Source of the DNA: Lachnospiraceae bacterium
GTDB lineage: Bacteria; Bacillota; Clostridia; Lachnospirales; Lachnospiraceae
DNA: 64,000 bases
Direction: 5' to 3'
Assembly: GCA_017521195.1 (NCBI GenBank)
Contig: JAFXGP010000088.1
Span: 11,203 to 75,202 of the forward strand
Below the pieces are notes generated by a model, which did not search any database, had not been told where the DNA came from, and saw only the letters and a list, made by a program, of their open reading frames with translations. Shown piece after piece: positions 16,817 to 36,752 of the stretch (the stretch's first letter is position 1; every line of letters begins with the position of its first letter). The position numbers and the translations under genes are program-made.

Positions 16817-18703
16817 TTATCTCACCTCTATAATATAGCCATATGCATTTTCAAATACTCTTTTTTGATTATCTACATATTCCGGATTACAATATACATC
16901 CTGTTTATCACGTCTTACCAATGCGTAATCAACTGCTCTATTCTCTACCATGGAATATTCTATCTCCAAGTCCCATGTCCACGTAGGAATCTGATTGGTA
17001 ATCGCATAGAAGTCGTCAAATCTGGGCCAATCACATACCCAGGCTACCGAGTAACCTGCTTTCGTCAGCTTGGCTGCTTCATTGCATAATTCCTGTTCTA
17101 AAGGACTCATCTTTATCTCATTATAGCGGTCGGTAACAGCATCCAGATTCGTATGTATAAGATTAAAATAAGCCGCAGCCCGATCCTCCAGGCACATAGA
17201 CTCATCTCTTTCTCTCAATTGCTCATCCACATGAATTAAGCTCCCTGCAAACAAAATCGTACACATCAGACCATATGCAACTAAAAATTGCTGCTGGGAT
17301 TTATCTATATCTGCAATCACCCTCACCATAATCGCAAAGCACAAAAGCCATAATAAATTATAATTCTTATTATAATAATATAAACTTATAAATCCCATTA
17401 TATATAATAAAAACTGTGCCCCTATGTATCCCAAGGTTAAAACAAATACCACTATATATTCGTCTAATTTACGTTTGCATAATGTATTCCATAAATAAAC
17501 CAATACAAAAGGAATCAATAATACAAAATTAGAATATAAATCGTAATAAGAAACTCCCGGAATTGCCAATCCAGATATGATGGAACCATCCCATCCTGTT
17601 GTTGCCACTTCCGGCTGTGTTACATCTTCTACACTATCCCTTTCTGTACTTACCGCCTCTGCTACAACTTCGTTTTCTACACTTGCAACTTCAGACACGA
17701 CCTTAGCTTCCAATTCCGGTTCCGGCGCCGACACACTGGTAAATATTCCAAAATATACATAGACAATACACAATACTCCTGCCAAAAACAAAGAAAATGC
17801 CGTATATAGGATTTTTTCTTTCCAAAATCCTTTTCTCTCGCCCCAGATGTATAGGAACTGTGCTCCGAACAAGACCGGCGCAAAGTATACATAACAAACA
17901 CACAATGCTGTATTGGCAAAAAAAGCCGCTATCATTAACTGCAGTGAACTAACATTTCCGCTTCTGTATTCTTTGAACAAATATAAAATCAGCGTTACCA
18001 ACAGAATGGAGGTCCCCCAATAGGTAAATCCATATAACATATTATTTAAAGGGTATCCCAACATATATATAATGGTTAAAATAAGACCTATTATCTTCTT
18101 AGGCAAACTTCTTAATTCTTCTCCAATCAACGCCCAGAATGTAACACCACTTAAAGCAAATAAAAAAGTCTGAAATGCCAAAAATACTTTATAATAATAC
18201 AAAGTTCCCAAGAATGGTGTAATAAACATCAGGTTAAGTCCATCTCTCAATTTTTGGAAATACATGGAACCAATTGTCTGTGTTCTTACTACGTCTTCTG
18301 CCCACATCAGATGTATGGAACCATCACCGGATTTAAAGCGAAATACCTCAAACCATCCGCTATATCTGGAATAAGAAATCAATAATGATACTGCTGCCAC
18401 TACCACAACAGCTGCCATATCCTTATAATCCCAATAATATTTCTGTTTTTCTTTTCCACCCTTTATATAAAGCATTAAAAGTATCACAGTGGCAATAATA
18501 TCACAGATAGAAACACTAATTAAATTGATTGGCACATGAAACAAATTAAGTAATCCTGCACTTGTAGCTTCATAACACCACACTAATAAAAAGCTGAAGA
18601 CAAAATAAGACACACCATTTACTCTTTTTTCATTTTTCTTATAACTAAATAGTGATATTAGTAATACAATAAAACTTATAAAATATAAAATCGAACCTAC
18701 CAT
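16817..18703 (-). CDS. large polytopic membrane protein, function unknown (GT-C-like glycosyltransferase or polymerase candidate)
   Basis: 628 aa. About 9-10 TM helices are followed by an acidic low-complexity linker (APEPELEAKVVSEVASVENEVVAEAVSTERDSVEDVTQPEVATT). About 4 more TM helices and a ~130-aa soluble C-terminal domain follow. I recognise no family motif with confidence. Confidence 0.4.
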   Translation of the reverse strand: MVGSILYFISFIVLLISLFSYKKNEKRVNGVSYFVFSFLLVWCYEATSAGLLNLFHVPINLISVSICDIIATVILLMLYIKGGKEKQKYYWDYKDMAAVVVVAAVSLLISYSRYSGWFEVFRFKSGDGSIHLMWAEDVVRTQTIGSMYFQKLRDGLNLMFITPFLGTLYYYKVFLAFQTFLFALSGVTFWALIGEELRSLPKKIIGLILTIIYMLGYPLNNMLYGFTYWGTSILLVTLILYLFKEYRSGNVSSLQLMIAAFFANTALCVCYVYFAPVLFGAQFLYIWGERKGFWKEKILYTAFSLFLAGVLCIVYVYFGIFTSVSAPEPELEAKVVSEVASVENEVVAEAVSTERDSVEDVTQPEVATTGWDGSIISGLAIPGVSYYDLYSNFVLLIPFVLVYLWNTLCKRKLDEYIVVFVLTLGYIGAQFLLYIMGFISLYYYNKNYNLLWLLCFAIMVRVIADIDKSQQQFLVAYGLMCTILFAGSLIHVDEQLRERDESMCLEDRAAAYFNLIHTNLDAVTDRYNEIKMSPLEQELCNEAAKLTKAGYSVAWVCDWPRFDDFYAITNQIPTWTWDLEIEYSMVENRAVDYALVRRDKQDVYCNPEYVDNQKRVFENAYGYIIEVR

Positions 18704-25425: not shown

Positions 25426-26274
25426 CTACATTCTTATCCATCCCTTACACCATACATCCGGTGTCGGAATGTTTTCAAACCACACCTTAGGTGCGATTAC
25501 TTCTTTCTCTACATTTGCATTCAGCCAAGCGCTCCACCAACTGAAGCTACTGTTGGCTATCACATTGTGTTTGCAACAACTCATCAGTTCCATGTCACGG
25601 AAACTGTTCTTTCCGCTGTTCCAATCCACGAAAGTCATTTCTCCTGCTGCCTTAAAATTTTCTCTCACCCATTCTTTATCGTTAGTAAAAACAAAGAAAT
25701 GAACATCTTCGTATTTCCCCATAAAATAGGCAATGGCTTTTTTATAATATTCTTCATCGCAAGGATTTCCATATAATCGCATTACCTCTTTGTTCAGGTA
25801 ATCTCCTCTGCGGATATGCAATGCCACAGAGTTAGTTGCTGCCATCTTTTCTTTTATTTCAAGATTTAATGGATTATCATCTTCCGGAAACCGATAGAGC
25901 TTTCTAATATCTCTTTCTATCTCTTTAAAATATTTTTCTGTCTGCCAATATCCATCAAAATACTTCTCATTCAATTGAAACACTTCCGGATGAAATTCCA
26001 TACCCTTTTCAAGATAATGGGTCTTTTTATATCCAATAGTATGTCTTAAAATCTTGTGTAACAGACTCTTATTGCAGTCACCGTATTTTGCTACCTCTTC
26101 CAAAGTTGCTTCTTCCATGTCTGCTCCAAAAATCCCCAGTTCATTATAATCATTGTTATACTGTAACTGACTGTTATCTATTTTTACTTTTTTCCCTAAA
26201 TGCTGTAATTGTTTTGCCAGAGCGTACTGGAACATCTGATTTCCCAATCTGCCCTGTAATTTCATAATTACCAT
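25426..26274 (-). CDS. GT11-family alpha-1,2-fucosyltransferase
   Basis: 282 aa with all three GT11 motifs: GRLGNQMFQYALAKQL, LHIRRGDY and ANSSFSWWSAWL. Confidence 0.85.
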   Translation of the reverse strand: MVIMKLQGRLGNQMFQYALAKQLQHLGKKVKIDNSQLQYNNDYNELGIFGADMEEATLEEVAKYGDCNKSLLHKILRHTIGYKKTHYLEKGMEFHPEVFQLNEKYFDGYWQTEKYFKEIERDIRKLYRFPEDDNPLNLEIKEKMAATNSVALHIRRGDYLNKEVMRLYGNPCDEEYYKKAIAYFMGKYEDVHFFVFTNDKEWVRENFKAAGEMTFVDWNSGKNSFRDMELMSCCKHNVIANSSFSWWSAWLNANVEKEVIAPKVWFENIPTPDVWCKGWIRM

Positions 26275-26285
26275 GGTTTTCCCTC

Positions 26286-27275
26286 TTATATAGGCTGTGT
26301 TTTTCCTACTTTATATAACAGATGTAAAATTTCAAGCCAACCCTTTTGCAACAACCATAATTTTAATTTATTGGCTTTGGATATGGTCTGCATATATTCA
26401 TTCTTAGGCCACTGTGGAAATCTTTTATCCATGTATTCCACCATTTGTTTTGCCATTTTGCTGTTTTTATCTGCCCGCACACAGCGTCCTGCTGCCGCAA
26501 TCAGAACATGATAGATTCCTAAGGATTCCAATACAGAATAGTACTGTTCATAGACTCCCTTCTTTTTGAAATATGCTATAATCAGCTCCATGGCTTTTAT
26601 AATTTCTAAATTCTTTTCGTTAGCTCTGCTATGCATTACGGAAGTGGAACGCTGCATATAATAATACAAAGGCTCCGCTAACACTTCAATCTTACCCGCA
26701 TTGCTTAAGAAGATACAGGCTCCCACCAGATCCTCATACCACATACCGGTTGGGAAACGCATATCCGGATTATCAAAGATGCTTCTTCGGTATAACTTAT
26801 TCCAAGGACAAGGATATTCTAATAATACTTTCGGATGTTTTTCTACACTGATTTCTTTTGCATCAATGTTGCACCCTTTCATAACGGTCAGCACTTTCCC
26901 TGACTCATCTGTCACGTAAGCATCGAAAAGCACCATATCTGCATCGGTTTTCTTCGCCAACTGATAAGTTTTCTCCACCAAGGTAAGTTCCACGGTATCG
27001 TCACTGTCCACAAAGAGAATATACTCTCCTTCTGCCAGGGTAATGCCTTTGTTTCTGGCACCTCCCTGCCCTGTATTCTCCTGTTTGTATGCACGAATTT
27101 TACCCGGATATTTCTTCTGATATTCCAGAGCAACCTCATGACTTTTGTCTTTGGAACCATCATCGATAATAATGATTTCAAAATTCTGCATGGTTTGCTT
27201 TAAAATAGAATCCAGACAAATCCCGATATAACCTTCTACATTATAAGTTGGTATAATAATACTGACTGCTTTCAC
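26286..27275 (-). CDS. family-2 glycosyltransferase
   Basis: 329 aa. Signature VSIIIPTYNVEGYIGICLDSILKQTMQNFEIIIIDDGSKDKS and motif VDSDD. Confidence 0.85.
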   Translation of the reverse strand: MKAVSIIIPTYNVEGYIGICLDSILKQTMQNFEIIIIDDGSKDKSHEVALEYQKKYPGKIRAYKQENTGQGGARNKGITLAEGEYILFVDSDDTVELTLVEKTYQLAKKTDADMVLFDAYVTDESGKVLTVMKGCNIDAKEISVEKHPKVLLEYPCPWNKLYRRSIFDNPDMRFPTGMWYEDLVGACIFLSNAGKIEVLAEPLYYYMQRSTSVMHSRANEKNLEIIKAMELIIAYFKKKGVYEQYYSVLESLGIYHVLIAAAGRCVRADKNSKMAKQMVEYMDKRFPQWPKNEYMQTISKANKLKLWLLQKGWLEILHLLYKVGKTQPI

Positions 27276-27286
27276 GTTTTCTACCT

Positions 27287-28339
27287 TTATCTGTTCATAT
27301 CATAATAAATCTGCACCAATTCTTTTATACTATTGTCCAGATTATATTCCTTGTTTATTTTTTCTCTTCCTGTGATTCCGCATTTCTTTTGCAGATTAAC
27401 ATCTTCCAACAATTCAGCCAAAGCATCTTTCAAAGCCTTGGTATCCTTCGGTGGAATCAACACTCCTGTCTCCTGCGGAGTTACCATATAAGGAATTCCC
27501 CCAACATTGGTTGCCACGCAGGCACATCCATATGCCATACCCTCCAGTAAAGATACCGGCATTCCTTCAAAATAAGTTGGAAGTACAAATATATTACATT
27601 CTTTTAAATACTTCTCTTTTTGTTCACTGTCAATCCAGCCAAGTTGATGTACCCATTCACCGCAATAATCTGCTTTTTCTTTCAAATCTTCATCCACCCA
27701 GATACCGCCCAGATACAATTCTAATTCCGGATACTGTTCTTTAAGCTCACTCACTGCATCTAACAGTTCCCTGATACCCTTTTCCTTACACAAACGGCCC
27801 AGAAATAAAAGTTTTTGTCCGGAATAATTTTTTTCATATACGGGTGGAACTTTAATGGTATTTGGAAACACCGTGATTTTATTCACATCCGTAATGTCCC
27901 CAAAGATATCCTTCAAATGAGGAGCTACCACTAGCATCTTATCTGCCTTATCCACCACACTTCTAATTTGTTTTCTTTGGCTGTCATTACATTTCTCATA
28001 ATAGAATTCATCAATATGTCCGCCATGCTGATGTATGATTATTTTTTTCTTGTATAGGGACGCAATGTAAATAAACGGCATTTTACGATAGATACTTACA
28101 TCTGATGCCATGTTTACATGAACAATATCGTATTTATGCACTACCATTACAAACTTCAGCAAAGCTTTTGCCGCCACCAGCAATTTATGAACTTTGCTTC
28201 CATCTTCCATGGTTCCAATATAGGTCAAATCAATCTGTTTATCCAAACCTGCATCATAGTAATTGTTAATTACACCGGAAATACCTCCATTAACACTTCT
28301 GGCCGGACCAATCATCAAAACTTTTACTTTTTCTTTCAT
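27287..28339 (-). CDS. GT4-type glycosyltransferase
   Basis: 350 aa. Motif LPTYFEGMPVSLLEGMAYGCACVATNVGG (EX7E). Confidence 0.8.
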   Translation of the reverse strand: MKEKVKVLMIGPARSVNGGISGVINNYYDAGLDKQIDLTYIGTMEDGSKVHKLLVAAKALLKFVMVVHKYDIVHVNMASDVSIYRKMPFIYIASLYKKKIIIHQHGGHIDEFYYEKCNDSQRKQIRSVVDKADKMLVVAPHLKDIFGDITDVNKITVFPNTIKVPPVYEKNYSGQKLLFLGRLCKEKGIRELLDAVSELKEQYPELELYLGGIWVDEDLKEKADYCGEWVHQLGWIDSEQKEKYLKECNIFVLPTYFEGMPVSLLEGMAYGCACVATNVGGIPYMVTPQETGVLIPPKDTKALKDALAELLEDVNLQKKCGITGREKINKEYNLDNSIKELVQIYYDMNR

Positions 28340-28342
28340 ACA

Positions 28343-28465
28343 TTAAAATCCCTGATATAAAACAGATACATTTTCCACCATCAGTACCGCATACACTGCA
28401 ATTAACAGTTTTGCTACTAATAGAATAAATTGTATTTTATCCGGTAATTGTTCAAACTTCTTCAT
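28343..28465 (-). CDS. unannotated 40-aa single-pass membrane micro-protein, DltX-like (C-terminal YxxF)
   Basis: Below the ORF-track size cut-off. It reads ATG (28465) ... TAA (28343) and encodes MKKFEQLPDKIQFILLVAKLLIAVYAVLMVENVSVLYQGF. SD AAGGAAA lies 6-7 nt upstream. It starts 21 nt after the MBOAT stop, and its stop is 3 nt before the next ATG. The shape is one TM helix plus a C-terminal tail ending in Y-Q-G-F. Confidence 0.55.
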   Translation of the reverse strand: MKKFEQLPDKIQFILLVAKLLIAVYAVLMVENVSVLYQGF

Positions 28466-28486
28466 AGTTTCCTTCACACTTACACT

Positions 28487-29689
28487 TTATCTAAACATAT
28501 TTATTAATGCTCCCCAAGTATCGTATCCCACAAAGGCAAAGGAGATACAGATATAGCCCCAAGTAACACCGATTTCGATCCATTTAACAATAGGTTTACT
28601 CTGATATTCTTTGTATTTCTTCTTACCCATTTTCTTCTTCAGGGTATTGTTAAACCACATACTTCCGGATACGCCTAAACCTTCTAACAAACCATATATA
28701 ATATAGTTGATGGTATTGCCGTGCCAGATACCTGCAATGAAAAAAGTAACAAATAACATCACATACTGGATAATATTAATATCCGCTTTTTCAAACTTGG
28801 TAATTCCCCATTTAAAAATCGGAGAATAAATATAATCACGAATCCACTGGGACAGGGTGATATGATGTCTGTTCCAGTATTCGGATAAACTTCTTGCCAA
28901 ATAAGGCTTGTTGAAGTTTTCCGGAATAGTAAATCCTGCCAGCTTTCCTGCTGCAATCACAATATCGCAGAAACCTGAAAAGTTAAAATAAATATACCAA
29001 GCATTCAGAAATGTAAATGCCAAGTAAATCACTAACAATGTAACACCACTCCAACGTTCAAAATTGCGGAAGGCTTTATCTGTGTAATTATGTATGACAC
29101 CGGAAATCAAAAATACTTTGATATATCCGTTTAACATACGGTTCAACTGGCTGTAAATTTCCTGCTTTTCCAAAGGCTGTTTTTCTTCCTTACGGTCTTC
29201 CAGATAATCCCGAAATCTCATAATCGGACCGCAGATAATGGTATAGAAGGATAAGAGGTAATTCACATAATCCAGAAGACGGATTTCTTCTCCTTCTTCC
29301 TTTAGCCAATCATACTGCATTACAAAATCAATTTCTCGGAACAAAATATAAGAAAGTCCCAGCAGCTTCCATGCAAATAAATAGGGAATATTTAACACAC
29401 CAAAAATCCAGTCGTATTTCATTTCATATGCGAAACATACTACCAGTGCTATAATAATCCATCTCTTATTCTTCACTCTTGGAGTCAGGAGGTAGGGAAA
29501 CAGAATAAAAAATGCTGCAAACAATAACTGTCCGATACTACGGATTCCCACACCAAACACAAATAGGTTTAATCCAAGAAAAATCAATTCTCTGTATTTC
29601 CAATTGTTTCTTAAAAAAATAGGTGAAATCACTAAAAGTATAACAAACCAAAGTGATTCAATTGCAACCTCAAACATAGTTCTCCTCAT
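28487..29689 (-). CDS. MBOAT-family membrane O-acyltransferase (DltB/AlgI-like)
   Basis: 400 aa, polytopic. Motifs EYWNRHHITLSQWIRDYIY and FFIAGIWHGNTINY (conserved MBOAT His). Confidence 0.85.
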   Translation of the reverse strand: MRRTMFEVAIESLWFVILLVISPIFLRNNWKYRELIFLGLNLFVFGVGIRSIGQLLFAAFFILFPYLLTPRVKNKRWIIIALVVCFAYEMKYDWIFGVLNIPYLFAWKLLGLSYILFREIDFVMQYDWLKEEGEEIRLLDYVNYLLSFYTIICGPIMRFRDYLEDRKEEKQPLEKQEIYSQLNRMLNGYIKVFLISGVIHNYTDKAFRNFERWSGVTLLVIYLAFTFLNAWYIYFNFSGFCDIVIAAGKLAGFTIPENFNKPYLARSLSEYWNRHHITLSQWIRDYIYSPIFKWGITKFEKADINIIQYVMLFVTFFIAGIWHGNTINYIIYGLLEGLGVSGSMWFNNTLKKKMGKKKYKEYQSKPIVKWIEIGVTWGYICISFAFVGYDTWGALINMFR

Positions 29690-29715
29690 TCCATGATTTC
29701 ATATTTCATCATGAA

Positions 29716-29949
29716 TTACGCTAATTTCTTTTCAATCAATGCAATAAATTCGCCTACGTTTTTCAGTTTCATAACTTCTACTGTAGTAAATTTCACGCCG
29801 AATTTCTTTTCTACAGCTACAATCAACTGAATGTGTGTGAGAGATGTCCAATCTTCCACATCTTCTGCTGTCATTTCATCAAAAAGCTCCAATTCGTCAT
29901 CATCAAATACATCCTGAAATACTTCTGTTAAAGTTTCTTTTACATTCAT
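29716..29949 (-). CDS. acyl/peptidyl carrier protein (DltC-like)
   Basis: 77 aa, acidic. The Ser attachment context is EDVEDWTSLTHIQLIVAVEKKFG. The start lies 1 nt after the FkbH-like stop. Confidence 0.8.
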   Translation of the reverse strand: MNVKETLTEVFQDVFDDDELELFDEMTAEDVEDWTSLTHIQLIVAVEKKFGVKFTTVEVMKLKNVGEFIALIEKKLA

Positions 29950-29950
29950 C

Positions 29951-31702
29951 TTAATTTATCTCCTTTATCCAAATCTTTTTATTATATTCTTTTGTTAAAT
30001 CATATCCATATTTATTCTCCGCGATTTCTTCAAATCCTAATCCGGGATAGAAATCTTTTACCATACGGTTCTTTGCGGTAGGAATGTATTCTCCCACCAA
30101 TTTACTGCACCCCATACTTCTTGCCGCATCACATACATGAGAAAAGGCAAATTCTTCCACACCTCTCTTTAATACACGACAGCTCATAACCCAGGTATCA
30201 GCAAAACATTCTTCTCCGTCTTTTCTCAGAATAATACAGGAAATGATTCCGTAATCGCTGAATTTATCCTTTAAGGACACTGCCAAAAGCTTGGTATTTT
30301 CTTCCTGCATCATTTGTTCAATAGAAGCTTCCGTATAACGGATGGTGCGGAGATTAAACTGATTGGATTTGTTAATTAACTGTGCAAAACGTTCCTTGCT
30401 GTATTCATCAATTTCGTCCACACTTCCGACCATATCCAATGCCTGCAAATATTCGTCATAGTTTACAAAGCTGCTTTCCAGTTCCTGGCGTTTGCTGTTC
30501 TGTAAATAAGACTGGGTACGTTTGAAATCTTCTCCTGTCAACTGTCCCCATTCAAATGGCATACATAAGGATAATGCCTGTACATAATCAGCCGGATCTT
30601 CCGGTACATCTACTACCAAAACTTCCGGTACAAATTTCTTTACAATTTCCCGTTCCGCCGGATTGTCATCGAAGAATACCAGAGAGTCCACACCGATATT
30701 CAGTTTAGATGCAATGGTACGGATATTACCTGCTTTGTCTTCCCAGTTGGCAATGAAACAAGAGATATCGTCCAGTTTCAAAATCATCTTATCATTTTTC
30801 TCAAACGGCTCTTTGGCAATATCTTCTTCGTTTTTACTGCATACTGCCAAAATAACACCACGTTCTTTTAACTGTAATACATACTGTTGGAAAGCTCTGT
30901 AGGATTCCCCGATGGCATTGTTTGGATCCAACTGGATTCCCATACAACCGTCATCACCTACAACACCACCCCAAAGGGTATTATCTAAGTCTAATACCAG
31001 ACACTTTTTCACTTTACCGGTTAATGCCAGAATCTGTTTTACAAACACTTCTGCAGCAACTCCGATATAATCCATACGGAACCCGGTTTTGGACAGATAA
31101 TAGGAAGAATTGTCAAACCAGTTGATTTTACCAACCACTCCTGCCCAATAATCCATATCCATAATGGTTACATTACCGCCACGTTTTTGTTCTAACTTAG
31201 CATTAATTCTCTTGTAATAATAAGAGCGGGAATATTCATAATTAGATTCCAGATTGCCCAATGCTCTCTCAATAGGGAGTACAAAGTTGGCCTGAAGAAT
31301 CTGACATCCCAAAGAAGTCTCTAATTTACTCCAGATCCCTTGATACAACTGCACCTGCTTGTCTGCCAGCTGTTCTACAGCGTCTGCATCGCTTCCCAGT
31401 ACCGGAAATTCTTTAATATCCTTAATGGATGGCAACAAGATTACCATGGATGGTTTGAATTCATACAAATCAGAGTCATCATTTAACACATCCATTAAAA
31501 TGCCATCATATTCCCCTTCATAGATATTGGCATCGATGCCTTCTTCATGTAAAAGGAAACGGAGTACACTTACAAAATGCTGTATGCTGTAAGACCCGAG
31601 AACCGCAATTCTTACATCCTTTTCTCCTGCCACATAAGACTTGGCATAACGTCTTGCCAATTTTAATAACTGAGGTATTTCTTCTATGTTCCAAACGTTC
31701 AT
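29951..31702 (-). CDS. FkbH-like HAD-IIIC family enzyme (candidate glyceryl-/acyl-ACP loader)
   Basis: 583 aa. HAD motif I is LVLDLDNTLWGGVVGDDG. The C-terminal domain carries the conserved Cys context VMSCRVLKRGVEE. Confidence 0.75.
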   Translation of the reverse strand: MNVWNIEEIPQLLKLARRYAKSYVAGEKDVRIAVLGSYSIQHFVSVLRFLLHEEGIDANIYEGEYDGILMDVLNDDSDLYEFKPSMVILLPSIKDIKEFPVLGSDADAVEQLADKQVQLYQGIWSKLETSLGCQILQANFVLPIERALGNLESNYEYSRSYYYKRINAKLEQKRGGNVTIMDMDYWAGVVGKINWFDNSSYYLSKTGFRMDYIGVAAEVFVKQILALTGKVKKCLVLDLDNTLWGGVVGDDGCMGIQLDPNNAIGESYRAFQQYVLQLKERGVILAVCSKNEEDIAKEPFEKNDKMILKLDDISCFIANWEDKAGNIRTIASKLNIGVDSLVFFDDNPAEREIVKKFVPEVLVVDVPEDPADYVQALSLCMPFEWGQLTGEDFKRTQSYLQNSKRQELESSFVNYDEYLQALDMVGSVDEIDEYSKERFAQLINKSNQFNLRTIRYTEASIEQMMQEENTKLLAVSLKDKFSDYGIISCIILRKDGEECFADTWVMSCRVLKRGVEEFAFSHVCDAARSMGCSKLVGEYIPTAKNRMVKDFYPGLGFEEIAENKYGYDLTKEYNKKIWIKEIN

Positions 31703-31740
31703 GTATTCCTCACATTCCGCTGTGATTACAGCTTTTTCCC

Positions 31741-32667
31741 CTACTGCATAATGCGGGAGAATTCTTCTTTCATAAAATCTGTATATTTTAATTGCGCCTC
31801 TTTGGTAAGATGGGCACGGTCTTCATAATCTTCCCAGTCAAATATATTTCTACTGTCGATGTAAGCAATTCCATGTTCTTCCAAAAACGGTTTCAATTCA
31901 TTATCAATGTATTGATTAAAGATAATTCCTTCGTTGGAATCTGCATGAGCCTGTGTAATATACACGAAGTTCACCACCACGTTAGTTCTTTGTTCTAATT
32001 CCAGAATCTTATCTTCAAATTTTTTCTTCTGTTCTTCACTAATATATTCAAAATCCTTAGTAAAAGTATTCCACTCTTCCAACTGAGCTTCGTAAACCTC
32101 CGGACTGTCTTCCAAAGCCTGTACTTTTAAAGTCAGCTTTTCTACTAGGTTGTCCAGATTATGCTCAATGGCAAATAAGTACCTTTTAATCGCTGAAGTC
32201 CAGTAACTTTTACGTTCCAACTCCAAATCCTGATTGACGTAAAAATCACCCCAAGTATTAATATTGGCTACTGCTGCCATGTTATGGTATTCTGCTTTAC
32301 GTATAGTACTGGTTCCCATGTCCAACAACAGATAATTATCTTTGGTATAAGAATAGCCTTTCTGCTCCAAATAATCTAATAATAAGATTAATTCATCCAA
32401 GCTCTGGGCACTGGTTGCCATTAACTCCACTTCCGGGAATGCTTCCATGTCGATACCACTCTGAGCTGTGGAAGCACCGAATTGCACTATCTTTACCCGT
32501 TCACCCTTGTCCAGGATGCGTTCCACATCAATGAAATATAAATCTCCCAGGGCACCCTCTCCGGCCACGGATACATTGACTGCAACAATGATGGCTGCTG
32601 CCGCAATTGTCGCAACTAAAATACCAATGCATGTTTTTAAATATTGATTCAATCCATATTTTTTCAT
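31741..32667 (-). CDS. membrane-anchored SGNH/DltD-like extracytoplasmic O-acyltransferase
   Basis: 308 aa. There is an N-terminal TM anchor (IGILVATIAAAAIIVAV), a Ser-block FGASTAQSG and a C-terminal DxxH block (EDRAHLT). Confidence 0.55.
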   Translation of the reverse strand: MKKYGLNQYLKTCIGILVATIAAAAIIVAVNVSVAGEGALGDLYFIDVERILDKGERVKIVQFGASTAQSGIDMEAFPEVELMATSAQSLDELILLLDYLEQKGYSYTKDNYLLLDMGTSTIRKAEYHNMAAVANINTWGDFYVNQDLELERKSYWTSAIKRYLFAIEHNLDNLVEKLTLKVQALEDSPEVYEAQLEEWNTFTKDFEYISEEQKKKFEDKILELEQRTNVVVNFVYITQAHADSNEGIIFNQYIDNELKPFLEEHGIAYIDSRNIFDWEDYEDRAHLTKEAQLKYTDFMKEEFSRIMQ

Positions 32668-32678
32668 AATAGTTCCTA

Positions 32679-33887
32679 TTAATTGTTTTTATTTATTCCT
32701 ACTTGCTTCTTAAATGAAAGGAACTGCCACCAATAGACTTCTTCCGTTCCTTCCAGATGAAGTATTTCACTAAGATACACTCCAAGTAAAATCAAAACAT
32801 AATTTCTTCCGTTGAATACGGAAATGGTATGAGCTTCAAACAACTGATAAAAAGCAAACATCAGAACCATTACATAGATTCCGTAGTCCTTTCTTTTCTT
32901 ACTATTCCAAAGCAATGCACCGTTAAGATACATATACACAAGCCCCGGAACAATTCCATACCAGTAGAATAATCTGACAATTCCCATGTCAAAATATCGG
33001 GTATTGTCCGGACAGGAAAACAAACTCCATCTTGTCAGATCCGCTCTAAAGTACGCATATCGAAGTCTGGCCGAGAAAATGGTAAAATCAATTTTATCCA
33101 ACCACAAATGACTCCATCCCTTATGATTAAACCCTACTCCATACCAGGCTACCACAACTGCCAGAACTACCGTCATGGCAATGGCAACACAACCAAATAT
33201 GTAGACCCATTTTTGGTCTCTCATCTTCGGACAATAGACAAAAAAGGCGGCCACCATAATAGATATGGCTGTTGTCATAAGTCCCATTCGGGAAGTGGAA
33301 AAACAATATGCCAGCACATTGATTCCCATAAGAATCCCCAGTTTATACAGGTTCAGTTTATCAAATTTAAGATAAATCCACAATAGTGTTAACATCAGCA
33401 CCATGCAATGGAAGGAGTTCGGATGTCCCATACCAAAGGTATATCTGGTTTCTAAGATATTATTACGGAAGATATCTGTTAAAGTCATGTCACCGTAAAT
33501 TCCCGTAATAGCCAATCCCATAATTAGAAGACATCCTATCAAAGTCACTTTAAAAACATAGGATAGCACTTTCTTGGCATCCAACCCTTTGCAGGCTGCA
33601 CACAAAGCAACTACACGGATAATTTCTTCCCTGTCAGTACATATATAAGAACAGATACCCATAAGTACAAAAAACGCCATAACTATCCATTCCTTACGGC
33701 TGTACTTGGTAAGAACAATTTTTCCTACAAACAATACGAAAAACAACCGGAACCACCAGGTCTGATATTGGATAATATAATTACTCTTATCCAGAATCAC
33801 CATGAAAAGTTCTCCTGTTAATCCTGCATAAAACAGACCATTTTTCAACTGATTCAGTTTTCCTTCTGTTAACAACTTTCCATTCAT
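32679..33887 (-). CDS. O-antigen ligase/polymerase-like membrane protein (Wzy_C/WaaL family)
   Basis: 402 aa, about 10-12 TM helices, with an external-loop motif TFGMGHPNSFH typical of the O-antigen ligase family. Confidence 0.6.
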   Translation of the reverse strand: MNGKLLTEGKLNQLKNGLFYAGLTGELFMVILDKSNYIIQYQTWWFRLFFVLFVGKIVLTKYSRKEWIVMAFFVLMGICSYICTDREEIIRVVALCAACKGLDAKKVLSYVFKVTLIGCLLIMGLAITGIYGDMTLTDIFRNNILETRYTFGMGHPNSFHCMVLMLTLLWIYLKFDKLNLYKLGILMGINVLAYCFSTSRMGLMTTAISIMVAAFFVYCPKMRDQKWVYIFGCVAIAMTVVLAVVVAWYGVGFNHKGWSHLWLDKIDFTIFSARLRYAYFRADLTRWSLFSCPDNTRYFDMGIVRLFYWYGIVPGLVYMYLNGALLWNSKKRKDYGIYVMVLMFAFYQLFEAHTISVFNGRNYVLILLGVYLSEILHLEGTEEVYWWQFLSFKKQVGINKNN

Positions 33888-33906: not shown

Positions 33907-35829
33907 TTATTTCAGTTCAAAGTAATTGTTAAGTGTTTTATCATCAAACATATAATTATAGATAATGTTATGATATCTGTTGATTTCCGTATCGCATTTC
34001 TCATCTGCTTCCTGATAAGAAATATGATTTTCTGCTGCATCTATAATACCTACCGTATTTATTACCGGATATTCTTCATACAAATCCATAAGGTATTTCT
34101 GGTGCCCGGTCATAGGTAATCCCAAAACCTCCATAGCATAGGACGACAAATAATTTAAACTCATATCTACATCCTGTTTTTCTTCGATGTCATAATTAGT
34201 CCAGATAAAATAAGGTGTGATATACATTTTCTGACGTTCCGACTGAGGCATATTGTTTAGGGAATATCCTGTCATAGTTTCCACAAACTCAGATTCCACT
34301 GCCGGCTGATGATCTCCGAAGAAGATGACTGCCACCGGTTCTTCATAAGCTTTCAGATATTCCAAAAATTCCCCCAAAGCCCGATCACTTTCATGTACCA
34401 GATTCAGATAATTACTTGTCTCTTCATAATTCTTGCCTTCCAAAGAAATCTCTTTTCTCAGCTGTTCGATTTCTCCGGTGTATCCTCCATGATTCTGAAC
34501 CGTTACATCAAAGATAAACATAGGTTCAGAACCCTTATTTTCTTCTAAGAGTTCTTTTACCACTTCATACTGACTGCTGTCCGTTGCATACTGACGGATA
34601 TAAGTTAAAGAATCCATATCTTCTTCAAAAAACGTACGGTCTACACCAAAATAATTATAGACAGATACTCTGTTCCATCCATAGGAACCATAAGGATGCA
34701 TAAACACGGTTTCATAACCCAAAGCTTTCATCTGGGTAAAAAGATTTTCTTTCTCTTCATGCAGATACATCTGATAGGGAACCACTCGTTCCGAAAAATA
34801 TCCAATACTGTTACCGGTCAAAAATTCGTATTCAGAATTAGCTGTATTTCCACCATAAATAGAAACATACAAATCTCCTTGGATGGTGTTCTCTTTTAAA
34901 CTCTTTAGTACCGGTAAAACTTCTTTGCTGGTTTCAAATTCTCCCAACACTTCCAAATCCGCGAAACTTTCATTCATAATGGCAATGATATTAGGATATT
35001 CTGCAGACACCGCAGCTTCATCAGAACTATACTCCTGTAATTGCTGTTGTAATTCTTCCGCTTGATATTCTTCCGGTTCACTAATCATAATCTCTTTTAA
35101 CTGCAGATACAGGTTGTAAGCAAATCCATTGGTTTCATGGGACCAATAATCCGCTTTTACTCCACCAAAAGAAATTATACTATTGGTACTAAGTAGCAAA
35201 AGCCAAAATATAACAGACAAGCCTGATAATATCACTCTTACCTTCCTCGGAAATTCCTGTTTTTCTTTTCTGTATTGCAAGAATGAAAGTATGACCAAAA
35301 ACAACACTCCTGCCAGAAAACAAAGACCGGCTCCTGTCTTTAATATAAATTCCATGTCAAAGTTCAACGTGTAACTACCGGCCACCGTCATGGCTGTTTT
35401 CAACGAGAAAATATCCCCGCCGCTAAGAGGTGTGCTTCGGATTGCCTTCACCACTGCATTCACAATCCCAAGTATCACAAAGAATACTGTAGGAATCCAT
35501 ATGGTAATACTCCACTTTTTCATCACCGAAACCAGTAGCATATAAATGCTTAAATACAACAGGATATTTAATATTCCTGTTTTGTTAATCCCGGTAACCA
35601 CTTTTCCGATAGCCATTAAATCATTAAAATAACAAGCACTTACGGCCAATAATAGTACCATCAGGTAGCTACTAAGGATTGTTTTTTCTTTCTTTTCTGC
35701 CACCCACATCCCAATGGATATCAAGGCAAAAATTACACATGAAACTATGCTTGCTCTTCCAATCAGAGCAAGGGCCCCAAGAACCGCCAGTGATGCAATT
35801 ACACTGCTATACTTCCATGAATACTTCAT
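33907..35829 (-). CDS. LtaS-like phosphoglycerol (alkaline-phosphatase superfamily) transferase
   Basis: 640 aa. A multi-TM N-terminus is followed by an extracellular sulfatase-fold domain. Its motifs are IIAIMNESFAD, GGNTANSEYEFLTG (Thr nucleophile context) and IFFGDHQP. Confidence 0.75.
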   Translation of the reverse strand: MKYSWKYSSVIASLAVLGALALIGRASIVSCVIFALISIGMWVAEKKEKTILSSYLMVLLLAVSACYFNDLMAIGKVVTGINKTGILNILLYLSIYMLLVSVMKKWSITIWIPTVFFVILGIVNAVVKAIRSTPLSGGDIFSLKTAMTVAGSYTLNFDMEFILKTGAGLCFLAGVLFLVILSFLQYRKEKQEFPRKVRVILSGLSVIFWLLLLSTNSIISFGGVKADYWSHETNGFAYNLYLQLKEIMISEPEEYQAEELQQQLQEYSSDEAAVSAEYPNIIAIMNESFADLEVLGEFETSKEVLPVLKSLKENTIQGDLYVSIYGGNTANSEYEFLTGNSIGYFSERVVPYQMYLHEEKENLFTQMKALGYETVFMHPYGSYGWNRVSVYNYFGVDRTFFEEDMDSLTYIRQYATDSSQYEVVKELLEENKGSEPMFIFDVTVQNHGGYTGEIEQLRKEISLEGKNYEETSNYLNLVHESDRALGEFLEYLKAYEEPVAVIFFGDHQPAVESEFVETMTGYSLNNMPQSERQKMYITPYFIWTNYDIEEKQDVDMSLNYLSSYAMEVLGLPMTGHQKYLMDLYEEYPVINTVGIIDAAENHISYQEADEKCDTEINRYHNIIYNYMFDDKTLNNYFELK

Positions 35830-36752
35830 TCTTCCTCACATTCCGGCACTAACCAATCGGTATAGATGCCTTTTACGCCATATTCGCGTAACTGATTTGC
35901 CGTGGTTTCATCATTTACGGTATATACCAAAACATCAACATTCCACGCATTAAAATATTCCACAATCTCTTCACTGATTCTGCCGGTTTCCATCGCTACT
36001 ACAGGAATTTTATTTTCCAGACAAAATCCCAGAATTTCTTCATAAATCGGACTAACATAATGATATAAGGTATATACATAATGTTTAAACGGATAAATGC
36101 TTTGCATAATCTCATAAGATTTAGGATTGTATATCTGGATAATCATACGATCCAGAATATCCTTTGTTTCCCGTATGCTTGCTTCTTCCACCAAAGCAGA
36201 CACCAGAGTAATTACATCCTCATTGGAACTGCCCATGGAATTATCCCACTTAATGTCTGTCATCATATAAACATCCGGATAAATTTCCATCAAATCCATC
36301 AATTTCTTCAAATCTACGGGTGTATATTTACCTTCTATTTTTTCCTGCATAAACGAAGAGTATTCTATCTCTTCTCCATTTGCATCCAGATACTCATGGG
36401 AACAAACCACTTCTCCCTCTTTTGTCACCACTAAATCTACTTCATATACCCGGAATCCATTTTCATAAGCTTCTTCAAAAGCCTCCAAAGAATTGGTATA
36501 ATCACTCTCGTCAATTCCACCCATAGCATGTGCCAATAAAGTATCTTCCTTCAGCCACTCTGCCATGTTTTCTGCCAAGGGGTCATACTTGTCCAAATCC
36601 ACCGGATTCAACCAATATCGGATATAGGTCTTCACCATGGTTCCGTAGCCATGTCCCCTAAGACTGTTCAGCCCCAAGAATGCTACTGCCAAACCAAGGA
36701 TAACAAATATAAGAATCAATATTTTCTTCTTATTCTTTGAAAAAAATGTCAT
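35826..36752 (-). CDS. membrane-anchored glycerophosphodiester phosphodiesterase family (GDPD) protein
   Basis: 308 aa. There is an N-terminal TM anchor, then LLAHAMGG...TNSLEAFEEAYENGFRVYEVDLVVTKEGEVVCSHE (GDPD pattern). 4-nt overlap with the upstream gene. Confidence 0.65.
   Translation of the reverse strand: MTFFSKNKKKILILIFVILGLAVAFLGLNSLRGHGYGTMVKTYIRYWLNPVDLDKYDPLAENMAEWLKEDTLLAHAMGGIDESDYTNSLEAFEEAYENGFRVYEVDLVVTKEGEVVCSHEYLDANGEEIEYSSFMQEKIEGKYTPVDLKKLMDLMEIYPDVYMMTDIKWDNSMGSSNEDVITLVSALVEEASIRETKDILDRMIIQIYNPKSYEIMQSIYPFKHYVYTLYHYVSPIYEEILGFCLENKIPVVAMETGRISEEIVEYFNAWNVDVLVYTVNDETTANQLREYGVKGIYTDWLVPECEEE

What the first reader, a model, noticed from the sequence alone, without database searches (positions are those of the whole stretch)
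28343..28465. Unannotated 40-aa ORF with DltX-like topology and a C-terminal Y-x-x-F tail next to the MBOAT
The ORF is too small for the ORF track. It encodes MKKFEQLPDKIQFILLVAKLLIAVYAVLMVENVSVLYQGF*. It has a good SD (AAGGAAA), starts 21 nt after the MBOAT stop and ends 3 nt before the next gene's ATG.
Work on the S. aureus Dlt pathway (2023, as I recall it) showed that DltX is a single-pass micro-protein. Its conserved C-terminal motif, (aromatic)-x-Y-x-x-F, carries the acyl group on the Tyr between DltB and DltD. Here the last six residues are V-L-Y-Q-G-F. The Y-x-x-F-COOH part is present and only the first aromatic is missing. This supports the idea that the module uses the same Tyr-shuttle mechanism for a different acyl group.
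Basis: partly seen in the sequence, partly recalled or inferred. Interest (0 to 1): 0.7.

Follow-up and report, generated by a model that had tools for sequence, protein, structure and literature searches.

The report
Conserved tyrosine-tail microprotein beside DltB-like acyltransferase
The 40-codon ORF is a real, widely conserved membrane microprotein whose invariant C-terminal Tyr-x-x-Phe tail most likely carries an acyl group (probably glyceryl) across the last step of a previously undescribed, Dlt-like pathway that decorates surface polysaccharides in many bacterial phyla.

Summary
It lies on the minus strand (28465→28343), with the stated sequence, Shine-Dalgarno site and spacings.

The ORF is not a chance ORF. 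Of 80 genomes with a homologous MBOAT:
- 68 have a 30-54 aa single-pass micro-ORF ending [V/I][L/V]-Y-x-x-F-stop. Tyr and the terminal Phe are invariant in 55/55.
- 8 have a longer MBOAT that itself ends in this motif and have no micro-ORF.
- 3 of the remaining 4 are on short contigs.

The micro-ORF belongs to a conserved five-gene cassette: an FkbH-type loader, an ACP, a DltB-like MBOAT, the microprotein, and a membrane-anchored SGNH/DltD-like protein. The cassette occurs in Firmicutes, Actinobacteria, Proteobacteria, Planctomycetota, Acidobacteriota, Verrucomicrobiota and Elusimicrobiota.

However, this family is not a sequence member of DltX. It gives no PF12459 hit, while true DltX scores 57 bits, and hhalign gives 8%. 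The first aromatic is usually Val/Ile, and there is no DltA.

Best reading: a functional analogue of DltX that shuttles an acyl group on Tyr37 from the MBOAT to the SGNH transferase. The acyl group is probably glyceryl, delivered by ACP. Nothing is shown biochemically.

Novelty: a new variant of a known kind. Recent literature states that non-Dlt MBOAT/SGNH pathways lack both a carrier protein and a DltX-like microprotein.

The parts
28343..28465 (-). Micro-ORF of 40 aa. It has an N-in single TM helix (about residues 11-30), a 6-residue linker and the C-terminal tail V-L-Y37-Q-G-F40-COOH.
   Evidence: Translation. Hydropathy. Positive-inside rule holds in 50 of 55 family members. Conserved in 68 of 80 loci. 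Y and F are invariant.
28346..28363 (-). Codons for the C-terminal hexapeptide VLYQGF (putative acyl-shuttle motif). The Tyr37 codon is at 28355-28357.
   Evidence: Family consensus is [V/I][L/V]-Y-[Q/K/R/M]-[G/A/N]-F-stop. The same motif ends the fused MBOATs of L048, L065, L069 and L072. hhalign between the microprotein family and the fused tails gives probability 77%.
28468..28474 (-). Shine-Dalgarno-like AAGGAAA upstream of the micro-ORF ATG.
   Evidence: Read directly from the sequence.
28487..29689 (-). DltB-like MBOAT acyltransferase of 400 aa. The catalytic His323 sits in AGIWHG. There is no C-terminal YxxF.
   Evidence: Pfam MBOAT, E 2.9e-24. TIGR04091 DltB scores 172 bits, below the equivalog cut-off of 375. 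The only PDB sequence hits are DltB, E 7e-23. AF2 model has pLDDT 91 and Foldseek TM-score 0.79 to DltB 8JEM. H323 is invariant.
29716..29949 (-). Stand-alone acyl carrier protein of 77 aa. Ser36 lies in W-T-S-L.
   Evidence: PP-binding hit. ACP/DltC-type NCBIfam hits. The ACP is adjacent to the MBOAT in 67 loci, with the W-D-S-[LM] serine invariant.
29951..31702 (-). FkbH-type loader of 583 aa (FkbH_N + HAD-IIIC + FkbH C-terminal region). It is the presumed glyceryl-S-ACP synthase.
   Evidence: TIGR01686 FkbH scores 313 bits against a cut-off of 147, and HAD-IIIC scores 72 bits. PF21211 hit. Co-conserved in about 55 loci. [quoted passage not shown]
31741..32667 (-). Membrane-anchored SGNH/DltD-like protein of 308 aa. 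It has an N-terminal TM helix and an extracytoplasmic domain with G64-x-S66 ... D283-x-x-H286. It is the presumed final acyltransferase.
   Evidence: Family found in about 48 loci. G64 and S66 are invariant, and D283 and H286 are at least 90% conserved. The best PDB profile hit is DltD 6O93, E 0.019, aligning both the GSS and DxxH motifs. AF2 model has pLDDT 70. Foldseek top hits are GDSL 4RW0 and DltD 6O93/6PFX/7DXM, E 0.012-0.04.

Best explanation
The micro-ORF encodes a real single-pass membrane microprotein with its N-terminus in the cytoplasm and its C-terminus outside. It is the fifth component of a conserved surface-polymer acylation cassette.

Proposed sequence of events:
1. The FkbH-type enzyme loads an acyl group onto the phosphopantetheine arm of the adjacent ACP. 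The group is most likely glyceryl, taken from 1,3-bisphosphoglycerate.
2. The DltB-like MBOAT uses its conserved His323 to move the acyl group through the membrane. It lands on the phenol of Tyr37 in the microprotein's extracytoplasmic tail, ...V-L-Y-Q-G-F-COOH.
3. The tail swings to the membrane-anchored SGNH/DltD-like protein. This protein takes the acyl group on Ser66 and esterifies the polysaccharide made by the surrounding Wzx-type glycan gene cluster.

Shown here: the ORF is real and conserved; Tyr and the terminal Phe are invariant; the topology signals are present; the five genes co-occur; split and fused forms are mutually exclusive; and the MBOAT has the DltB fold.

Inferred: the acyl-Tyr intermediate, the identity of the acyl group, and the acceptor polymer.
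For: **Conservation of the micro-ORF**
- 58 of 80 loci have a micro-ORF ending Y..F just downstream of the MBOAT, and 10 more have it elsewhere in the locus.
- In 55 sequences, Y(-4) and F(-1) are 55/55. Position -6 is V or I in 47, and position -5 is L, V or I in 54.

**Split and fused forms**
- 8 loci have a longer MBOAT (477-571 aa) that ends in IVYKVF, IVYKAF, LVYGNF or ILYADY and have no micro-ORF.
- Two of these, L048 and L065, carry the same FkbH and ACP genes.
- The micro family aligns end to end with the fused tails (hhalign probability 77%).
- The frame relative to the MBOAT varies (20, 11 and 27 loci in the three frames), so the micro-ORF is an independent ORF.

**Topology**
- A hydrophobic core is present, and K+R are enriched on the N-terminal side in 50 of 55 sequences.

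**Partner proteins**
- The MBOAT is DltB-like, has the invariant His, and has DltB's length, so it lacks the extra helices that carry the fused motif.
- The ACP serine is conserved.
- The SGNH-like partner has invariant GxS and a conserved DxxH, and DltD is the top PDB match by both profile and fold.
- In Gram-negative loci its gene directly follows the micro-ORF.

**Literature**
- The acyl-Tyr shuttle on FXYXXF was demonstrated for DltX and PatA.
- FkbH-like enzymes make glyceryl-ACP.
- No FkbK/I/G-type tailoring genes are found in the cassette.
Against: - There is no biochemical or genetic evidence for this family.
- It is not detectably homologous to DltX. None of 32 members hit PF12459, while true DltX proteins score about 57 bits. 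hhalign against DltX gives 8%.
- The first aromatic of FXYXXF is aliphatic here.
- Support for the SGNH partner's fold is weak. Foldseek E-values are 0.01-0.04 on a model with pLDDT 70, and the HMM E-value is 0.019.
- No complex model could be computed.
- Four loci have the cassette without an FkbH gene nearby, so the acyl group may vary.
- FkbH substrate specificity outside polyketide pathways is untested.
Confidence: 0.72

Rival explanations
1. The microprotein is a real, conserved subunit, but it only scaffolds or stabilises the complex between the MBOAT and the SGNH-like protein. The acyl group passes directly from the MBOAT to the SGNH serine or to the polymer, and the Tyr is never acylated.
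For: DltX also holds DltB and DltD together. L. plantarum DltX binds DltD through both its TM helix and its tail. Conservation alone cannot separate a binding role from a catalytic one.
Against: The only invariant residues are the Tyr and the terminal Phe, at a fixed distance from a free C-terminus. The TM helix, which would be the scaffolding surface, varies freely. These are the same two positions that are invariant in motifs where acyl-Tyr was shown.
Confidence: 0.15
2. The micro-ORF is a leftover of a recently split (nonsense-mutated) fused MBOAT. In the window it is in frame with the MBOAT, separated by one stop codon and 7 codons.
For: The in-frame arrangement in the window. Fused MBOAT relatives exist.
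Against: The split arrangement is found in 68 loci across phyla, in all three relative frames (20, 11 and 27 loci) and with variable spacing, including 4-nt overlaps. The micro-ORF has its own ATG and SD. The MBOAT is full length relative to DltB (TM-score 0.79 over 417 columns). Fused forms carry about 80-170 extra residues, not 40.
Confidence: 0.03
3. It is an orthologue of DltX, and the cassette is a divergent teichoic-acid D-alanylation (Dlt) system.
For: The MBOAT's best family and structure matches are DltB. The ACP weakly matches DltC. The partner's best PDB match is DltD.
Against: There is no DltA-type adenylating ligase, and an FkbH loader sits in its place. The MBOAT scores 172 bits against the DltB equivalog cut-off of 375. 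There is no PF12459 hit, while real DltX scores 57 bits. The gene order differs from dltXABCD. The cassette is common in Gram-negative phyla that lack teichoic acids.
Confidence: 0.02
4. It is a chance ORF or a non-coding spacer/RNA element between the MBOAT and the glycosyltransferase gene.
For: It is very short. It has no Pfam or NCBIfam hit.
Against: It is conserved across phyla with an invariant Tyr and Phe followed immediately by a stop codon. The base rate of small ORFs ending Y..F is about 1%. Substitutions are synonymous-biased and conservative. There is no Rfam hit.
Confidence: 0.01

Closest known systems
DltX, the acyl-shuttle microprotein of the DltXABCD teichoic-acid D-alanylation pathway (Pfam PF12459)
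   Same: - Size is about 40-50 aa, with a single TM helix, N-terminus in and C-terminus out.
- The free C-terminus ends in Y-x-x-F, with the Tyr at -4 invariant.
- It is encoded in an operon with a DltB-type MBOAT that lacks a fused motif, a small carrier protein, and a membrane-anchored DltD-type SGNH protein.
   Different: - No detectable sequence homology.
- Position -6 is Val or Ile instead of Phe. The tail consensus is VLYQGF, against FIYNEF in DltX.
- The linker between the TM helix and the motif is shorter.
- The gene lies after the MBOAT rather than before dltA.
- The loader is FkbH (probably glyceryl), not DltA (D-Ala).
- It occurs in many Gram-negative phyla.
C-terminal FXYXXF acyl-shuttle motif fused to bacterial MBOATs (PatA, AlgI and WssH type; Schultz 2023, Anderson 2025)
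   Same: The hexapeptide follows a final TM helix at the extracytoplasmic C-terminus. Within this very MBOAT clade, fused versions (L048, L065, L069, L072) replace the micro-ORF, and their tails align with it.
   Different: - Here the motif is on a separate polypeptide.
- The donor is an acyl-ACP rather than acetyl-CoA.
- The published view is that non-Dlt MBOAT/SGNH pathways have neither a carrier protein nor a microprotein.
FkbH/ACP glyceryl-ACP modules of polyketide and tetronate biosynthesis (FkbH-FkbJ, OzmB, Mad7/Mad8)
   Same: An FkbH-domain enzyme (TIGR01686, 313 bits) is paired with a stand-alone ACP.
   Different: There is no PKS, FabH-like or FkbK/I/G tailoring gene. The ACP is instead coupled to a membrane MBOAT, a microprotein and an SGNH protein inside a glycan gene cluster.

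Membership tests
DltX (Pfam PF12459) | Significant match to the PF12459 profile | tested here: not met
   None of 30 family members hit at E<=10, nor did 2 extra members that have F at -6. As positive controls, Listeria, L. crispatus and E. casseliflavus DltX score 57-58 bits, E about 1e-15. hhalign between the micro family and DltX gives probability 8%.
DltX (Pfam PF12459) | Single-pass microprotein with N-terminus in and C-terminus out | tested here: met
   Hydropathy peak of 2.45 over residues 11-29. K+R are enriched on the N-terminal side in 50 of 55 members. This is prediction only.
DltX (Pfam PF12459) | Invariant Tyr at -4 and Phe at the free C-terminus (the YxxF-COOH part of FXYXXF) | tested here: met
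   55 of 55 for both positions. The stop codon follows the Phe directly in all of them.
DltX (Pfam PF12459) | Aromatic Phe at -6 (the first F of FXYXXF) | tested here: not met
   V 33, I 14, L 3, N 1, and F in only 4 of 55. The window has Val.
DltX (Pfam PF12459) | Encoded with dltA/dltB/dltC/dltD (D-Ala ligase pathway) | tested here: not met
   There is no DltA. FkbH is the loader. Real dlt operons are shown for comparison.
DltX (Pfam PF12459) | Forms a covalent acyl-O-Tyr intermediate | not testable with these tools
   This needs MS or radiolabelling of reconstituted proteins.
Bacterial MBOAT/SGNH acyl-shuttle pathways (Schultz 2023; Anderson 2025) | MBOAT with the catalytic His and a DltB-like fold | tested here: met
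   H323 is invariant. Pfam MBOAT hit. Foldseek gives DltB at E 3e-14, TM-score 0.79.
Bacterial MBOAT/SGNH acyl-shuttle pathways (Schultz 2023; Anderson 2025) | One extracytoplasmic C-terminal x-x-Y-x-x-F motif per system, either fused to the MBOAT or on a microprotein | tested here: met
   68 loci are split and 8 are fused, and the two forms are mutually exclusive. Three of the 4 unresolved loci are on short contigs.
Bacterial MBOAT/SGNH acyl-shuttle pathways (Schultz 2023; Anderson 2025) | Partner SGNH-fold transferase with a Ser/Asp/His triad | tested here: inconclusive
   GxS is invariant and DxxH is at least 90% conserved in 35 sequences. The best PDB profile hit is DltD at E 0.019. Foldseek top hits are GDSL and DltD, but only at E 0.012-0.04 on a model with pLDDT 70. 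There is no Pfam hit.
FkbH-type glyceryl-ACP synthase + ACP | FkbH domain above the curated cut-off, with an adjacent carrier protein that has a conserved Ser | tested here: met
   TIGR01686 scores 313 bits against a cut-off of 147. The ACP has a PP-binding hit. The W-D/T-S-L serine is conserved in 67 of 67.
FkbH-type glyceryl-ACP synthase + ACP | Uses 1,3-bisphosphoglycerate to form glyceryl-S-ACP | not testable with these tools
   Inferred from characterised FkbH-like enzymes. It needs an in vitro assay.

The most novel reading that the evidence does not exclude
This micro-ORF marks an unrecognised, phylogenetically broad second class of carrier-protein-dependent MBOAT/SGNH polymer-acylation machinery: FkbH, ACP, a DltB-like MBOAT, a Tyr-tail microprotein and a DltD-like protein. 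The microprotein family has no detectable sequence similarity to DltX but would perform the same acyl-Tyr shuttle, installing glycerate (glyceryl) esters on surface glycans of gut Firmicutes and of many Gram-negative phyla. This would overturn the current statement that only Dlt uses a carrier protein and a microprotein.
Probability: 0.5. Interest if true: 0.72.

Novelty: new variant of a known kind. Interest (0 to 1): 0.62.

Why it matters
The Tyr acyl-shuttle was established only in 2023-2025. It is currently described as either a DltX microprotein, unique to D-alanylation and the only case with a carrier protein, or a motif fused to acetyl-CoA-using MBOATs.

A second microprotein family with no detectable sequence similarity to DltX would matter in four ways:
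- It would show that the split, carrier-protein-dependent architecture is general and sits in a different loading context (FkbH/ACP).
- It would predict a new polymer modification, probably O-glyceryl esters, on gut and soil bacterial glycans.
- It would assign functions to three unannotated gene families: the microprotein, the SGNH-like partner, and FkbH genes outside polyketide clusters.
- It would provide a simple genomic signature for annotating such micro-ORFs, which gene callers either miss or leave unnamed: an MBOAT followed by a small ORF with a TM helix ending in hhYxxF-stop.

Tried and rejected
- **Complex model.** I tried the MBOAT plus microprotein as a linker fusion, and also as the read-through DNA reference.
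- **Deep alignment for the SGNH-like protein.** Only a shallow 10-sequence alignment could be used, which gave a mediocre model (pLDDT 70).
- **Exhaustive profile search.** A narrow 5-sequence micro-ORF profile was searched against 1.84 billion representatives. It returned only 2 hits, because 40-aa TM profiles lack statistical power. This says nothing about family size.
- **Word-index search.** The search with the 40-mer found only 4 close relatives. Conservation had to be shown through MBOAT-anchored loci instead.
- **PDB profile search with the micro family.** It returned only spurious TM-helix matches such as TRPV6.
- **Pfam and NCBIfam for the microprotein.** No hits.
- **Rfam on 28200-28600.** No hits.
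- **Promoter and terminator scan of 27000-33000.** Nothing above shuffled expectation. The ORF sits inside an operon.
- **Primary DltX paper.** Schultz et al. 2023 is not held. The motif was taken from the follow-up by the same groups.
- **Literature searches.** I searched for FkbH+MBOAT, HAD-IIIC+ACP+MBOAT, DltX-like, and DltB-like/DltD-like. None found a description of this cassette. This is absence in the searchable library only.
- **Rejected hypotheses.** Chance ORF, nonsense-split pseudogene, and true Dlt system. See the rival explanations.

Full report
**1. The observation**

The ORF lies on the minus strand, with ATG at 28465-28463 and TAA at 28345-28343. It translates to MKKFEQLPDKIQFILLVAKLLIAVYAVLMVENVSVLYQGF.
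- AAGGAAA lies at 28474-28468.
- The upstream 400-aa MBOAT ORF (28487-29689) ends 21 nt before the ATG.
- The downstream GT1 glycosyltransferase ORF (27287-28339) starts 3 nt after the stop.

Residues 11-30 form a strongly hydrophobic segment (Kyte-Doolittle 2.45 over 19 residues). It is preceded by MKKFEQLPDK and followed by ENVSVLYQGF. The exact sequence has been called as a gene on 10 public contigs, but no source names it. Pfam and NCBIfam have no model that matches it. No Rfam family matches the region, and no promoter or terminator signal exceeds shuffled expectation. It is an intra-operonic ORF.

**2. It is a real, conserved gene**

A word-index search found only four 40-aa relatives at 73-88% identity, all ending VLYQGF or ILYQGF. 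I therefore anchored on the MBOAT:
- 1454 homologues were found.
- A 25-sequence alignment was built from them.
- That alignment retrieved 80 genomic loci from species-representative genomes.

The loci break down as follows:

| Arrangement | Loci |
|---|---|
| Small ORF ending Y-x-x-F-stop just downstream of the MBOAT (ending within about 610 nt of its stop, most within 170 nt) | 58 |
| Such an ORF elsewhere in the locus, either just upstream of the MBOAT or a few genes away | 10 |
| MBOAT 477-571 aa long that itself ends ...IVYKVF, ...IVYKAF, ...LVYGNF or ...ILYADY, with no micro-ORF | 8 |
| Unresolved (three on contigs of 1.8-3.7 kb) | 4 |

The base rate of 25-80-aa ORFs ending Y..F in the same DNA is 74 of 6831. 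Most of those 74 are the true ones.

In 55 collected sequences of 30-54 aa (median 41), the tail positions are as follows:

| Position | Residues |
|---|---|
| -4 | Tyr 55/55 |
| -1 | Phe 55/55 |
| -6 | V 33, I 14, F 4, L 3, N 1 |
| -5 | L, V or I in 54/55 |
| -3 | Q 39/55 |
| -2 | G 31/55 |

The rest of the protein is a freely varying TM helix. Lys and Arg are enriched on the N-terminal side in 50 of 55 sequences, which predicts N-in, C-out.

The frame relative to the MBOAT varies: 20, 11 and 27 loci fall in the three frames. The in-frame arrangement in the window is therefore incidental and not a recent nonsense split.

Against the nearest genome (L001, Lachnospiraceae MAG RGIG7742, 85% DNA identity), 6 of 10 changed codons are synonymous. 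The other four changes are I/V, A/G, V/I and S/A.

**3. The surrounding module**

All genes are on the minus strand. In order of transcription they are:
- A 308-aa protein (31741-32667).
- A 583-aa FkbH protein (29951-31702). TIGR01686 scores 313 bits against a cut-off of 147, and HAD-IIIC and FkbH_N domains are present.
- A 77-aa ACP (29716-29949).
- The MBOAT.
- The micro-ORF.

tblastn and an iterated HMM show the same set in about 50 loci. These loci come from Lachnospiraceae, Erysipelotrichaceae, Oscillospiraceae, an actinobacterium (Ancillula), alpha-, beta- and delta-proteobacteria, Planctomycetota, Acidobacteriota, Verrucomicrobiota, Elusimicrobiota and Armatimonadota. In the Gram-negative loci, the homologue of the 308-aa protein lies immediately after the micro-ORF.

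*The MBOAT.* It is closest to DltB.
- TIGR04091 scores 172 bits, below the equivalog cut-off of 375.
- Its only PDB sequence hits are DltB, E 7e-23.
- A confident AF2 model (pLDDT 91) superposes on DltB over its whole length, with TM-score 0.77-0.79 and E 3e-14. The next-best hits, PORCN and HHAT, are seven orders of magnitude weaker.
- His323 is invariant.
- Like DltB, it lacks the extra C-terminal helices and the motif.

*The 308-aa protein.* It has an N-terminal TM anchor. Across 35 homologues, G64-x-S66 is invariant and D283-x-x-H286 is nearly invariant. This is the block I / block V signature of SGNH enzymes.
- Its profile's best PDB hit is DltD (6O93, E 0.019), aligning both motifs.
- A moderate AF2 model (pLDDT 70) gives GDSL and DltD structures as the top Foldseek hits, E 0.012-0.04.
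- These three lines are individually weak but agree. I rate the SGNH/DltD-like assignment as probable, not proven.

*The ACP.* The serine in W-D-S-[L/M] is conserved in 67 of 67 loci. The window has W-T-S-L.

*The wider cluster.* The cassette sits inside a Wzx-type glycan cluster. This includes several GT1, GT2 and GT11 glycosyltransferases, a flippase, an epimerase, an LtaS-type sulfatase-family protein and a GDPD.

**4. Mechanism**

Published work shows the following (PMC12148441, PMC13653941):
- DltB moves D-Ala from DltC onto the invariant Tyr of DltX's C-terminal FXYXXF.
- DltD's Ser takes it from there.
- PatA-type MBOATs carry the same motif fused after two extra helices and auto-acylate the Tyr.

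The present system has every architectural element of the Dlt version: a carrier protein, a short MBOAT, a microprotein with a YxxF-COOH tail, and an anchored SGNH/DltD-like protein.

The strongest argument specific to this family is complementarity within one MBOAT clade. A locus has either a micro-ORF or a fused tail, never both and never neither. L048 and L065 are fused and have the same FkbH and ACP genes. The micro family aligns end to end with the fused tails (hhalign probability 77%).

I therefore propose the pathway FkbH -> acyl-S-ACP -> (MBOAT His323) -> acyl-O-Tyr37 of the microprotein -> Ser66 of the SGNH-like protein -> polysaccharide hydroxyl.

The acyl group is most likely glyceryl, for two reasons:
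- None of the downstream tailoring enzymes (FkbK/I/G-like) is present in the cassette.

This step is an inference from family knowledge. The acyl-Tyr step and the acceptor are also inferred.

**5. Comparison with the known**

The family works like DltX, but it is not a member of it.
- True DltX proteins were recovered from annotated dlt operons of Listeria, L. crispatus, B. cereus and E. casseliflavus.
- Three of them (Listeria, L. crispatus and E. casseliflavus) were scanned against Pfam and score 57-58 bits on PF12459.
- None of 32 members of this family hits PF12459 at E<=10.
- hhalign between the two alignments gives 8%.

Other differences:
- The tail is VLYQGF, against FIYNEF in DltX.
- Position -6 is aliphatic.
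- The linker between the TM helix and the motif is shorter.
- The gene follows the MBOAT instead of preceding dltA.
- There is no DltA.
- The system is common in Gram-negative bacteria.

The 2025 paper from the groups that defined the mechanism states that other MBOAT/SGNH pathways lack both a carrier protein and a DltX-like microprotein. Six literature searches found no description of an FkbH/ACP/MBOAT/microprotein cassette. The 2023 primary paper could not be read, so earlier mention in its supplement cannot be excluded.

**6. Verdict**

The correction is that 'DltX-like' means analogous, not homologous.
- Novelty: a new variant of a known kind.
- Interest: about 0.6. The chemistry is expected, so a specialist would not be astonished. 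However, the finding extends a very recent paradigm to a broad, unannotated system, predicts a new glycan modification, and is directly testable in cultured strains.

Noticed in passing
L008, L009, L016, L018 (e.g. L009:4697-7380): These loci have the SGNH-like gene, ACP, MBOAT and micro-ORF but no FkbH gene within 6 kb. The loader, and therefore the acyl group, may differ in this sub-clade. A 363-aa ORF with no Pfam hit follows the micro-ORF in L009.
   Followed up: partly
window 28343-29689 (-): The MBOAT and the micro-ORF are in the same reading frame, separated by a single TAA and 7 codons (…INMFR*SVSVKETMKKF…). Other loci use all three relative frames, so this looks incidental. Stop-codon read-through would nevertheless produce a fused protein.
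   Followed up: yes
window 29716-29949 (-): The ACP has W-T-S-L at the phosphopantetheine site. 65 of 67 homologues have W-D-S-[L/M/F/V]. The Asp-to-Thr change is shared only with the closest relative, L001.
   Followed up: partly
window 31741-32667 (-) and homologues (alignment A3): The membrane-anchored GxS…DxxH partner family of about 310-390 aa has no Pfam or NCBIfam model at all, despite occurring in many phyla. It is an unannotated DltD-like family.
   Followed up: partly
window 29951-31702 (-): The N-terminal 385 residues match PDB 3SLR, 'uncharacterized protein BF1531' (Bacteroides), at E 3e-70. This is a solved structure with no assigned function that belongs to this loader family.
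   Followed up: no
L077-L080 (Cardiobacterium), MBOAT about 500 aa: These fused MBOATs end in I-L-Y-A-D-Y, with a terminal Tyr instead of Phe. They have no FkbH or ACP nearby, so they are probably an acyl-CoA-dependent relative.
   Followed up: no
window 33907-36752 (-): An LtaS-type sulfatase-family membrane protein (640 aa, PF00884) and a GDPD-family phosphodiesterase (308 aa) lie directly upstream of the cassette. This suggests glycerol-phosphate chemistry on the same polymer.
   Followed up: no
window 16817-18703 (-) and 32679-33887 (-): Two polytopic membrane proteins of 628 aa and 402 aa have no Pfam hit. They are possibly the polymerase or ligase of the glycan cluster.
   Followed up: no
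window 25426-26274 (-): A GT11-family (alpha-1,2-fucosyltransferase-like) glycosyltransferase lies within the same cluster. This hints at a fucosylated surface glycan in this gut or rumen Lachnospiraceae.
   Followed up: no
L086 (Ligilactobacillus murinus plasmid pLmYK1) and L084 (E. faecalis plasmid): These plasmids carry a stand-alone dltB gene with no dltX, dltA, dltC or dltD. On pLmYK1 it lies next to a bactofencin A bacteriocin gene, matching the reported DltB-homologue immunity gene.
   Followed up: no
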